This document shows positions 49,916-52,379 of a DNA stretch of 64,000 nt, one piece after another. Numbering within the stretch: the stretch's first letter is position 1; each line of letters opens with the position of its first letter. The stretch is from an uncultured Flavobacteriales bacterium (GTDB taxonomy: Bacteria; Bacteroidota; Bacteroidia; Flavobacteriales_F; PHOS-HE28). The stretch is from positions 151,571 to 215,570 of the forward strand of contig CAVPLQ010000003.1 in the NCBI GenBank assembly GCA_963706125.1. Reading direction: 5' to 3'. Below the pieces are notes generated by a model. The model saw nothing but the letters and a program-made list of their open reading frames with translations. It made no database searches and had not been told where the DNA came from. The translations under genes and the position numbers were made by a program.

Positions 49916-52379
49916 ATGTCCCAAGCACCTTACCTCAAGTGGCTCCACGAAGTTGAACTCAGCGATATCCACACCGTTGGTGGCAAGAACGCCAGCCTCG
50001 GGGAGATGATCCAGAACCTCGGGAAGCTCGGCGTGACAGTGCCGGGCGGATTCGTGGTCACGGTGGCCAGCTACGAGGCCTTCATCGCGCACAATGTGCT
50101 GGACCAGAAGATCCGCGATATCGTGGCGGAGCTGGACGTGGACGATGTGGAGAACATCCGCCGCACCGGACTTGCGGTGCGCACGCTGGTCAAGAACGGC
50201 AAGTTCCCGGAGGAGGTCTGGAAGGGCATCCTGCAGCGCTACGATGAAATGTCGCCAGAAGTACGGACAGGAAGCCACCGATGTGGCCGTGCGTTCCAGC
50301 GCCACCGCGGAGGACCTTCCCGATGCATCCTTCGCCGGACAGCAAGAGACCTTCCTGAACATCCGCGGACACCAGGACCTGATCAGTGCCGTGCGCAACT
50401 GCTTCGCCTCGCTCTTCACCGACCGTGCCATCGTGTACCGCGAAAGCCTGCGGCTACGACCACTTCCAAGTGGGCCTCAGCGTGGGTATCCAGAAGATGG
50501 TGCGCTCCGACGTGGGCAGCAGCGGTGTGGCCTTCAGCCTTGGATACCGAAAGTGGATTCAAGGATGTGGTGCTGATCAACGGCAGCTACGGCCTCGGTG
50601 AAATGGTGGTGCAAGGTGCCGTGAGCCCGGATGAATGGCTCGTCTTCAAACCCACGCTGGCCGAAGGTTACAGCAGCATCATCGAGAAGAAACTCGGCAA
50701 CAAGGACCGCAAGATGGTCTACGGTGTGGAGCCGGGAAAGCCCACGCTCACCATCCCCGATCGAACGTGCACAACGCAATCGCTTCTGCATCACCGACGA
50801 GCAAGCGCTGGAGGTCGCGCGCAGCGTGGCCGCCATCGAGAAGTACTACAGCGATAAGAAAGGCCATTGGTGCCCCATGGATGTGGAATGGGCCGTGGAC
50901 GGGCTCACCAAGCAACTCTTCATCGTGCAGGCCCGACCAGAGACCATCCATAGCCGCAAGGCCACGGACCGCGTGGTGGAATACAAGATCGACAAGCCGG
51001 AGGATGTCACCGAGGTCACCCGTGGCATCGCCATCGGCGATCGCGTCGGTGCCGGCAAGGTGCGCATCCTCTTCAGCCTCGACGGACGTGGTGGCGATAC
51101 GCGATGGCAAGGATTTCCAACAAGGGCGATGTGCTCGTGACCGACATGACCGACCCCGATTGGGAGCCGATCATGAAGAAGGCCAGCGCGATCATCACCA
51201 ACAAGGGCGGTCGTACCTGCCACGCGGCCATCGTGGCGCGCGAAATGGGTGTACCGGCCATCGTGGGCTGCGGCAACGCCACCGACCTGCTGGACACCGG
51301 CATGGAAGTGACCGCCAGCTGCTGCGAAGGCGATACGGGTATCATCTACAACGGCATCATCCCGTACACCAAGGAGGAAACGATGCTCGCCGACATGCCG
51401 GAGACGAAGACGCCGATCATGCTCAACGTGGCCAGCCCGGATCTGGCCTTCAAGTTCAGCGGACTGCCCAATGCCGGTGTGGGCTTGGCGCGTGAGGAGT
51501 TCATCATCAACAACTACATCCAGGCACATCCGCTGGCCTTGCTTGCAACACAAGGAACTCGGCGACGTCGGCCTGAGCGGCAAGATCAGCTACCTGATCA
51601 ACGGATACGAGGACGAGGAGACCTTCTTCGTGAAGAAACTCAGCTACGGCATCGCCAAGATCGCCAGCGCCTTTTACCCGAACAAGGTGATCGTGCGCTT
51701 CAGCGACTTCAAGAGCAACGAGTACAAGAACCTCTTGGGTGGCGAACACTTCGAGCCGGACGAGGAGAACCCGATGATCGGCTGGCGCGGTGCAACCCGC
51801 TACTACAGCGATGCGTACAAGGAAGCCTTCGGGCTGGAGTGCAAGGCCATCCGTCGCGTGCGCGAGAAAATGGGCCTGAAGAACGTGGTGGTCATGGTGC
51901 CTTTCTGCCGCACGGTGGAAGAGTTGAAGAAGGTGAAAGGCGTGATGGAGGAATACGGACTCAAGCGCGGCAAGGAAGGCTTGGAACTGTACCTCATGGC
52001 CGAGATTACCGAGCAACATCATCATGGCCGAGGAGTTCAGCAAGTACATCGATGGCTTCTCCATCGGCAGCAACGACCTCACCCAGCTCACCCTCGGTCT
52101 GGACCGCGATAGCGCGCTGGTGAGCCACCTCTACGATGAACGGAACCCGGCCGTGAAAGCGCATGTTGAAGATGCTGATCGAGACCGCCAAACGCACCGG
52201 TACCAAAGTCGGCATCTGCGGCCAAGGCCCCATCTGACTTCCCGGACTTCGCGCAGTTCCTGGTGGAACTGGGCATCGACTCCATCAGCGTAACACCGGA
52301 CTCCTTGCTGAAGACCAAGCGGGCGATTGCTGAGGTGGAGAAGACGATGGCCGGGAGAAAGGAGAAGGTGGGCGTGTAG
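49916..52379 (+). pseudogene. ppsA: Phosphoenolpyruvate synthase (PpsA) broken into at least 9 frame segments
   Basis: Every segment is strongly PpsA-like across three frames: [129 protein letters not shown]. One break is an extra C in a CCCC run at about 52235. Confidence 0.7.

What the first reader, a model, noticed from the sequence alone, without database searches (positions are those of the whole stretch)
49916..52379. ppsA is broken by at least 9 frameshifts in 2.5 kb while its neighbours of similar length are intact
PEP synthase is recognisable end to end with near-canonical motifs, but the reading frame changes at about 50240, 50455, 50535, 50770, 51095, 51545, 52015, 52160 and 52235. 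Other long genes in the window are uninterrupted: the EF-G paralogue (2.1 kb), the M1 peptidase (1.9 kb), the E1-nitroreductase gene (2.3 kb), the kinase (2.2 kb), the 2.9-kb repeat gene and recQ. An indel density near 1 per 270 bp is therefore specific to this gene.

Amino-acid conservation between the breaks is high. That argues against slow neutral decay, which would add many substitutions per indel. It points to one of three explanations:
- a recent burst of indels
- a locally low-quality or low-coverage assembly region
- a second, divergent copy collapsed into this one

At least one break is a homopolymer length change, CCCC versus CCC.
Basis: seen in the sequence. Interest (0 to 1): 0.55.

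Follow-up and report, generated by a model that had tools for sequence, protein, structure and literature searches.

The report
ppsA frameshifts are assembly consensus errors
The PEP synthase gene looks shattered by ten frameshifts, but each break is one extra base that looks like two alternative spellings of the same codon written side by side, which points to an assembly that merged two closely related bacterial populations rather than to a dying gene.

Summary
ppsA (49916-52379) is broken by 10 single-base insertions, not 9, because the break near 51095 is two insertions 25 nt apart. There are no deletions.

The breaks do not look biological:
- Each insertion forms a four-base codon, NNXY, starting at codon phase 0.
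- Deleting either X or Y restores the same uninterrupted 817-aa PpsA, which is 94% identical to intact orthologues.
- dN/dS against those orthologues is 0.05-0.16, and no stop codon has arisen by substitution.
- At every site, X and Y are the two states seen in the nearest related lineages.

The window holds four more +1 insertions, in a glyoxalase-family gene (~36230), a MoxR ATPase gene (~46061) and a T9SS-tail gene (60385 and 61087). Three of the four show the same signature.

An independent JGI metagenome contig of another lineage has ppsA broken by ten more such doublets. They lie at different positions, and the flanking genes are intact.

Best explanation: a consensus or polishing artefact. 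Reads from two related haplotypes were collapsed, and both alleles of a polymorphic site were emitted in tandem. The errors are concentrated in a strongly conserved gene. This is not a pseudogene and not new biology. Mapping the reads would settle it.

The parts
49916..52379 (+). ppsA (phosphoenolpyruvate synthase). It is 2464 nt as assembled and 2454 nt (817 aa) after removing 10 extra bases.
   Evidence: The stitched protein hits NCBIfam NF005057 at 1160 bits (cut-off 598) over residues 3-809. Intact orthologues are 94% identical. Repair gives one open frame.
50252..50255 (+). Doublet site 1, TCGC. Ser: TCG/TCC, or TCC merged with AGC.
50448..50451 (+). Doublet site 2, CTGC. Leu: CTG/CTC. 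This cannot be a homopolymer change.
   Evidence: L001 has CTC; L003 and L006 have CTG.
50539..50542 (+). Doublet site 3, CTTG. Leu: CTG/TTG or CTT/CTG.
50756..50759 (+). Doublet site 4, CCCG. Pro: CCC/CCG.
   Evidence: L001 has CCG; L006 and L169 have CCC.
51099..51102 (+). Doublet site 5, ACGC. Thr: ACG/ACC. No homopolymer is involved.
   Evidence: L001 has ACG; L003 and L169 have ACC.
51124..51127 (+). Doublet site 6, GGGC. Gly: GGG/GGC.
   Evidence: L001 has GGG; the others have GGC.
51542..51545 (+). Doublet site 7, CTTG. Leu: CTG/TTG.
   Evidence: L001 has TTG; L003, L006 and L169 have CTG.
52002..52008 (+). Doublet site 8, GAGATTA. It reads either as GAG/GAA (Glu) followed by TTA, or as ATT/ATA (Ile).
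   Evidence: L001 has GAA TTG; the others have GAG ATC.
52159..52162 (+). Doublet site 9, GCGC. It reads either as GCG/GCC (Ala) or as GCC/GGC (Ala/Gly). Both GCC and GGC occur in relatives.
52229..52232 (+). Doublet site 10, CCCA. It reads either as Pro CCC/CCA, or as the first bases of the two Ser spellings AGC and TCT in tandem.
36057..36441 (+). Small glyoxalase/VOC-family gene with one +1 insertion (CCCT at 36228-36231, Pro CCC/CCT).
   Evidence: The coding frame flips here. The stitched protein matches Pfam Glyoxalase 6-120/121. Deleting 36230 or 36231 gives the same 127 aa.
45322..46312 (+). MoxR AAA+ ATPase gene with a hidden +1 insertion at about 46061 (GACCCAC). The wrong frame happens to stay open to 46266, so the ORF looks intact.
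   Evidence: The coding frame flips here. The true C-terminus lies in the next frame. The stitched C-terminus hits AAA_lid_2 2-73/74. The repaired protein is 329 aa.
60269..61788 (+). T9SS-sorted protein gene with two +1 insertions: AGCT at 60383-86 (Ser AGC/AGT) and TCTA at 61086-89 (Leu TTA/CTA).
   Evidence: Homologues of 504-505 aa span the junction. Alignments to L167 and L168 locate the insertions. All four repair combinations give the same 505 aa.

Best explanation
The frameshifts are consensus errors in the assembly, not mutations in the organism.

**Proposed mechanism.**
- Reads from two closely related haplotypes were piled up on one contig. These could be co-occurring strains or species, or less likely a second gene copy.
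- At some sites where the two haplotypes differ, mostly wobble positions, the two alleles were placed in adjacent alignment columns instead of one.
- The consensus or polishing step then emitted both bases in tandem, as NNX plus Y.
- Each such event adds one base and shifts the frame by +1.

**Why ppsA is hit hardest.** It is a strongly conserved gene, 83-89% identical in DNA even between different lineages of this Flavobacteriales group. Foreign reads are therefore recruited there more than to less conserved neighbours.

**What the real gene most likely is.** An intact, functional 817-aa PEP synthase.

**What is shown and what is inferred.**
- Shown: the insertion-only pattern, the codon-phase and two-repair signature, purifying selection, recurrence in other genes and in an independent assembly.
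- Inferred: the read mixture itself and the software step that produced the doublets.
For: 1. There are 10 of 10 ppsA events, and 14 of 14 coding events in the window, that are +1 insertions with no deletions (sign test 6e-5).
2. All ten ppsA four-base stretches start at codon phase 0. Deleting the 3rd or the 4th base of each gives the identical 817-aa open frame.
3. Only 40-43% of random or duplicated-base insertions allow a second synonymous repair. This gives p of about 1e-4 for ppsA alone. It gives about 5e-8 for 23 of 24 events when the other window genes and contig L169 are pooled.
4. The repaired gene is under strong purifying selection. dN/dS is 0.045-0.156 against ten orthologues. Only 3 amino-acid states are unique to it. 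There are no internal stops. The [13 protein letters not shown] and GICGQGPSD stretches read intact in the repaired translation; that these hold the catalytic His and active-site Cys is from my knowledge of the family.
5. At all ten sites one of the tandem bases is the state of lineage L001. The other is the state of L003/L006/L169 at 9 sites and of L002 at 1 site.
6. It is not a homopolymer profile. The longest run is 4, five 4-runs are untouched, and sites 2 and 5 have no run at all.
7. The same signature appears in three other window genes.
8. An independent JGI contig of a different lineage (L169, 88.6% nucleotide identity) has ppsA split into at least 4 ORFs. It carries ten more synonymous doublets at different positions, plus two 1-nt losses at variable sites. 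Its flanking genes are intact, and ppsA is its most conserved gene: 86.7% against 73-78% for the flanks.
It is closer to most relatives than they are to each other, with a third-position terminal branch of 0.066 against 0.15-0.36, as expected for a consensus.
10. The exact frameshifted 313-aa fragment is deposited from a 555-kb NCBI/ENA contig. Its nearest relatives are uncultured Flavobacteriales MAGs.
11. A documented analogue exists. Nearby allelic variants caused misalignment and INDEL errors, and so apparent frameshifts, in a collapsed assembly (PMC8445201).
Against: - No reads are available, so the mixture is inferred and not seen.
- The neighbouring ADH gene is about as conserved as ppsA relative to L002 (82.7% against 84.1%) yet carries no insertion. 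Conservation alone therefore does not explain the concentration in ppsA.
- The MoxR site is ambiguous. It could be a CCC homopolymer change or a non-synonymous doublet.
- Seven or eight of the ten ppsA sites can also be read as one-base extensions of short runs.
- The hub-like position is confounded by lower GC3 in L001 and L002.
- Matching of the alleles to relatives is only weak evidence, because 68-85% of codons vary among relatives.
- A more context-specific null model could raise the chance fraction. At 0.6, p is still 8e-5 for 23 of 24.
- L169 was found through a fragment of ppsA, so its recurrence in this particular gene is partly a matter of how it was found.
Confidence: 0.8

Rival explanations
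1. These are ordinary residual long-read or low-coverage insertion errors, with no allele mixture. On this view a patch of the contig, for example a multi-mapping or poorly covered region, escaped short-read polishing and kept raw consensus errors.
For: - All events are single-base insertions and cluster in a roughly 2-kb patch.
- Several sit next to an identical base.
- Related long-contig MAGs also carry indel errors; L168 has three in 11.6 kb.
- Polishers are known to leave errors in repeat-like regions (Polypolish abstract).
Against: - Random errors should ignore codon phase, yet 23 of 24 +1 events allow two synonymous repairs (p about 5e-8).
- One tandem base always matches lineage L001 and the other matches another lineage.
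- There are no long homopolymers, and the longest runs are untouched.
- L168's errors are a mix of deletions and a homopolymer insertion, unlike the pattern here.
Confidence: 0.11
2. This is a genuine, very recent pseudogene. On this view the organism really carries ten +1 insertions in ppsA after a burst of insertion mutations, perhaps with an intact paralogue elsewhere.
For: - The sequence as deposited is frameshifted.
- No conspecific intact copy was found in the genome, metagenome or protein collections. The best hit is 94% identical.
Against: - dN/dS is about 0.06, only 3 amino-acid changes are unique, and there are no stops or deletions.
- From general knowledge, not measured here: neutral decay long enough to collect ten indels should bring far more substitutions than indels, most of them non-synonymous.
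- Natural indels are not insertion-only and do not respect codon phase.
- The same signature appears in unrelated genes of the window and, at different sites, in another lineage's assembly.
Confidence: 0.05
3. The frameshifts are decoded biologically, by programmed +1 ribosomal frameshifting or by reading four-base codons, so that PpsA is still made from the sequence as written.
For: Every break is exactly +1 at a codon boundary, and reading NNXY as one codon restores a perfect protein.
Against: - The ten sites use nine different four-base sequences with no shared slippery motif, no stop or rare codon at the shift, and no upstream stimulator.
- All orthologues lack the extra base.
- The sites differ between the two affected assemblies.
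- The only tRNA gene in the window is an ordinary tRNA-Thr.
Confidence: 0.01

Closest known systems
INDEL errors and apparent frameshifts in collapsed-haplotype consensus assemblies (Cosentino et al. 2021, NAR Genom Bioinform, PMC8445201)
   Same: Two similar alleles are merged into one consensus. Nearby allelic variants cause misalignment, spurious indels enter, and ORFs look truncated. Separating the alleles restores the genes.
   Different: That case is a diploid eukaryote with known reads. Here the two 'alleles' would be co-assembled bacterial strains or species, the reads are unavailable, and the specific tandem-allele signature at wobble positions was worked out here from sequence alone.
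Frameshift errors in long-read genome and metagenome assemblies (proovframe preprint 10.1101/2021.08.23.457338; Sereika et al. 2022, PMC9262707; Strainberry, PMC8302730)
   Same: Small indels break genes in otherwise contiguous long contigs. Strain mixtures are collapsed into consensus contigs.
   Different: The usual description is homopolymer-length error. Here there is no run longer than 4, every event is an insertion, and the events track variable codon positions.
Genuine bacterial pseudogenes formed by frameshift decay
   Same: A recognisable gene is interrupted by multiple frameshifts while neighbouring genes are intact.
   Different: Real decay mixes deletions, insertions, stops and non-synonymous changes. 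None of these accompany the ten insertions here.
Programmed +1 ribosomal frameshifting (prfB type)
   Same: A +1 shift is needed to read the full protein.
   Different: From established knowledge, prfB has one conserved shift site with a defined motif that is shared by orthologues. Here there are ten unrelated sites that are absent from all orthologues.

Membership tests
Phosphoenolpyruvate synthase (PpsA; NCBIfam NF005057 / TIGR01418) | Full-length match to the equivalog model above its curated cut-off | tested here: met
   The stitched protein scores 1160 bits (cut-off 598) over residues 3-809 of 817, matching profile positions 3-793 of 798. TIGR01418 scores 1136 bits (cut-off 740).
Phosphoenolpyruvate synthase (PpsA; NCBIfam NF005057 / TIGR01418) | Catalytic phospho-histidine motif and C-terminal active-site Cys motif present | tested here: met
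   [13 protein letters not shown] and GICGQGPSD read directly in the repaired translation. Assigning these as the catalytic motifs rests on my own knowledge of the family.
Phosphoenolpyruvate synthase (PpsA; NCBIfam NF005057 / TIGR01418) | Encoded as one uninterrupted reading frame | tested here: not met
   The sequence as assembled has ten +1 shifts. The feature is met only after removing ten bases.
Pseudogene by neutral decay | Relaxed selection: raised dN/dS and lineage-specific amino-acid changes | tested here: not met
   dN/dS is 0.045-0.156. Only 3 amino-acid states are unique against ten orthologues, which is fewer than or equal to the intact orthologues' own counts.
Pseudogene by neutral decay | A mixed spectrum of lesions: deletions, insertions and substitution-derived stops | tested here: not met
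   There are 10 insertions, 0 deletions and 0 internal stops in the repaired frame.
Pseudogene by neutral decay | Lesions supported by the sequencing reads | not testable with these tools
   No read data are available. The source record could not be identified beyond a 555,093-bp NCBI/ENA contig.
Collapsed-haplotype consensus artefact | Indels coincide with sites that differ between the merged haplotypes | tested here: inconclusive
   The haplotypes themselves are unseen. As a proxy, all ten sites lie at codons that vary among relatives, and the two tandem bases equal the states of two different related lineages. The background variability is high, 68-85% of codons.
Collapsed-haplotype consensus artefact | Removing either of the two tandem bases restores the same product | tested here: met
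   This holds for ppsA at 10 of 10 sites, the T9SS gene at 2 of 2 and the VOC gene at 1 of 1. The MoxR site is ambiguous. The chance expectation is 40-43% per site.
Collapsed-haplotype consensus artefact | Recurs independently in other assemblies at different positions | tested here: met
   In L169 ppsA, ten +1 doublets and two -1 events lie at positions different from those in the window.
Programmed +1 ribosomal frameshift (prfB type) | A conserved shift site and motif shared by orthologues | tested here: not met
   Every aligned orthologue (four, seven intact ones) lacks the extra base at all ten sites. One search's eighth sequence, L169, has its own extra base one codon downstream of site 8. 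The ten local sequences share no motif.

The most novel reading that the evidence does not exclude
The extra bases are real in the DNA of this organism and of the L169 lineage, and the cell still makes PpsA by decoding many different four-base codons or by pervasive +1 frameshifting. That would be an unprecedented recoding system in a bacterium. A milder version is a real, insertion-only mutational burst that targets wobble positions of a conserved gene.
Probability: 0.015. Interest if true: 0.9.

Novelty: not a real feature. Interest (0 to 1): 0.1.

Why it matters
**For the biology, very little.** The organism most likely has a normal PEP synthase. Calling this a pseudogene would wrongly remove a gluconeogenic step from its predicted metabolism.

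**For genome quality control, somewhat more.**
- The artefact has a recognisable fingerprint. It consists of insertion-only frameshifts, each sitting at a codon boundary where deleting either of two adjacent bases gives the same protein.
- The fingerprint can be detected and repaired from sequence alone.
- It flags places where an assembly has merged related populations.
- One of the errors, in MoxR, leaves the ORF open, so counting ORFs would miss it.

Tried and rejected
**Searches for the source contig or a conspecific intact copy. All failed.**
- An exact 45-nt search of genome contigs found nothing.
- Protein-guided scans of genome contigs and metagenome contigs found no relative above about 91%.
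- Exact-protein look-ups of the ADH, of the frameshifted 313-aa fragment and of P0127 found no contig on record.
- The listing of cluster members confirmed only that the fragments exist on a 555-kb NCBI/ENA contig, and gave no accession.

**Ideas considered and rejected or set aside.**
- Homopolymer-length error is rejected as the general cause.
- A shared ancestral pseudogene is rejected, because the L169 sites differ from the window's.
- I first thought ppsA was simply far more conserved than all its neighbours. That holds for L169's flanks but not for the window's ADH against L002, so it stays a partial explanation.
- The hub-like phylogenetic position is kept only as weak support, because GC3 differs among relatives.
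- Testing mosaic structure by sliding identity cannot separate chimerism from recombination, so I did not pursue it.

**Technical and minor.**
- My first simulation timed out and was replaced by exhaustive enumeration.
- Rfam and tRNA scans found only one tRNA-Thr.

Full report
**Observation.**
- Translating 49916-52379 in three frames shows a recognisable PEP synthase whose frame steps forward repeatedly.
- A stitched protein matches the NCBIfam PpsA equivalog end to end, at 1160 bits against a cut-off of 598.
- It finds many intact 816-830-aa orthologues in uncultured Flavobacteriales, the best 94% identical.
- DNA alignment to four intact orthologues shows that the window carries exactly ten extra single bases and no frame-breaking deletions. 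The orthologues are L001, L002, L003 and L006, fetched.
Its apparent backward shift near 51095 is two forward shifts 25 nt apart.

**Anatomy of the breaks.**
- Each insertion can be written as a four-base codon NNXY beginning at codon phase 0. In order they are TCGC, CTGC, CTTG, CCCG, ACGC, GGGC, CTTG, ATTA (or GAGA), GCGC and CCCA.
- Deleting the third base at all ten sites, or the fourth base at all ten sites, gives the same open 817-aa protein.
- I enumerated every possible one-base insertion in the repaired gene. Only 40-43% allow such a second, synonymous repair, so ten of ten has p of about 1e-4.
- The gene has no homopolymer longer than four. Five 4-runs are untouched and sites 2 and 5 involve no run at all. 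This is not a classical homopolymer error profile.
- At every site one of the two tandem bases is the state found in lineage L001. The other is the state found in L003/L006/L169 at nine sites and in L002 at one.
- That last point is only supportive, because most codons vary among relatives.

**Selection.**
- The repaired gene has dN/dS of 0.045-0.156 against ten orthologues.
- It has no internal stop.
- Only three amino-acid states are unique to it.
- A gene that had drifted long enough to collect ten indels should carry far more substitutions than this, most of them non-synonymous (general expectation, not measured here).
It is the nearest neighbour of most relatives and has a short third-position terminal branch. 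A consensus of mixed lineages would look like this, but GC3 differences among relatives confound the signal.

**Is it specific to ppsA?**
- The density is. The phenomenon is not.
- A codon-usage frame tracker flagged three more places.
  - A small glyoxalase-family gene at 36057-36441 has a +1 insertion, CCCT. Either repair gives the same 127 aa, and the stitched protein matches Pfam Glyoxalase 6-120/121.
  - The MoxR ATPase gene has a hidden +1 insertion near 46061. Its true C-terminus (AAA_lid_2) lies in the next frame, while the wrong frame happens to stay open.
  - A T9SS-sorted protein gene at 60269-61788 is 504-505 aa in relatives. It has two +1 insertions, AGCT and TCTA, and all repair combinations give the same 505 aa.
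- Every coding frameshift found in the window is therefore a +1 insertion: 14 of 14, sign test 6e-5.
- Ten of them fall in ppsA (p = 6e-12).
- All other genes examined have complete Pfam domains in single ORFs.

**Independent recurrence.**
- The exact 313-aa frameshifted fragment exists in public data on a 555-kb NCBI/ENA contig. It clusters with a 69-aa 'pyruvate, water dikinase' fragment from a JGI metagenome.
- That JGI contig (L169, 11.4 kb) belongs to a different lineage, 88.6% identical in ppsA. Its ppsA is split into at least four ORFs.
- The lesions in L169 are ten more +1 doublets: GGGT, AAAG twice, GTGA, TCGC, GCAC, CGCG, GGGT, CCCG and GCGC. There are also two one-base losses at variable positions.
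- Apart from one doublet a single codon downstream of window site 8, which the aligner places in the same column, these lie at positions different from the window's.
- L169's flanking genes are intact and much less conserved than its ppsA: 73-78% against 86.7% nucleotide identity to L003.
- Pooling the two assemblies, 23 of 24 +1 events show the two-repair signature (p about 5e-8).
- Different sites exclude a shared ancestral pseudogene. The common signature points to a shared technical cause.

**Mechanism.**
- The most economical explanation is a collapsed-haplotype consensus error.
- Reads from two related populations are aligned to one contig.
- At some differing sites the two alleles fall into neighbouring columns, and both are called.
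- A conserved gene such as ppsA recruits reads from relatives more readily than its neighbours do, which would explain the clustering.
- This last step is inferred and incomplete. The adjacent ADH gene is about as conserved as ppsA against L002 (82.7% against 84.1%) yet is clean.
- A collapsed second copy of ppsA in the same genome remains possible. ppsA sits in different genomic contexts in L001, L003 and L006. A 91%-identical relative (L168) is syntenic with the window from position 52386 onward, starting right after ppsA.
- A published analogue describes nearby allelic variants causing misalignment, INDEL errors and apparent frameshifts in a collapsed assembly, all resolved by phasing (PMC8445201).
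- Collapse of similar strains by long-read assemblers, and frameshifts caused by indels, are also documented (PMC8302730).

**Rivals.**
- Plain unpolished long-read error explains the clustering and the insertion bias, but not the codon-phase signature.
- A genuine burst of insertions is contradicted by that signature and by its recurrence elsewhere.
- Programmed frameshifting or four-base decoding is contradicted by nine distinct, motif-less four-base sequences across the ten sites, all absent from every orthologue.

**Verdict.** Novelty: not a real feature. It has some practical value as a recognisable fingerprint of merged populations, and as a warning not to score ppsA as lost in this genome.

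Noticed in passing
window 45322-46312: The MoxR ATPase ORF looks intact at 314 aa, but it carries a +1 insertion near 46061. The real C-terminus (the AAA_lid_2 domain, ending VPVPR) is in the next frame. 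ORF-length checks would miss this error.
   Followed up: yes
window 60269-61788: The T9SS-sorted protein gene is split into overlapping ORFs by two +1 insertions. Its identity to relatives L167 and L168 is a mosaic, with 97-100% stretches next to 61-77% stretches. This suggests recombination or strain-level hypervariability.
   Followed up: partly
window 36057-36441: A small glyoxalase/VOC-family gene is broken by one +1 insertion (CCCT). It would not be annotated as a gene in its present state.
   Followed up: yes
L169:3768-6250 (JGI 3300056831, Ga0558120_24901): An independent metagenome contig of another lineage has ppsA shattered by the same kind of tandem-allele insertions at different sites, while its neighbours are intact.
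   Followed up: yes
L168:8573, 9982, 12187 (GCA_016716825.1): This 91%-identical MAG has its own indel errors in the syntenic region: two 1-nt deletions and a CCCC insertion. They split two genes and distort the start of a third. The type of error differs from the window's insertion-only pattern.
   Followed up: partly
window 52379/52386 vs L168:220; also L001, L003, L006: Synteny with the closest relative starts immediately after ppsA. ppsA also sits in different neighbourhoods in several related genomes. The gene may be mobile or duplicated in this group.
   Followed up: no
window 59214/59221 vs L167:720-1943 and L168:7090-8313: Both relatives carry a DDE transposase (IS) inserted between the TPR gene and the next gene. 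The window lacks it.
   Followed up: no
window 55928-57766 (-) and 57002-57826 (+): The 612-aa PhoH ORF is probably over-extended at its 5' end. The relative's PhoH is 325 aa, and the overlapped region encodes a complete SAM hydroxide adenosyltransferase on the opposite strand.
   Followed up: partly
window 54105, 54849, 59174: There are three more single extra bases relative to relatives, all in intergenic DNA and all extending short runs (TT, AAAA, CCC). They may be natural variation or the same insertion bias.
   Followed up: no
window 1-3898 (-): A very long ORF (at least 1299 aa) runs off the window's start. Over 1-3000 it has a strongly negative AT skew on the + strand (-0.36 to -0.44). 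Only weak CarboxypepD_reg and Glyoxalase Pfam hits were found.
   Followed up: no
window 17196-19643 and 24843-28662: There is a ThiF (E1-like) and nitroreductase fusion gene, and a complete paaABCD cluster with a divergent paaE-like reductase. All appear intact.
   Followed up: no
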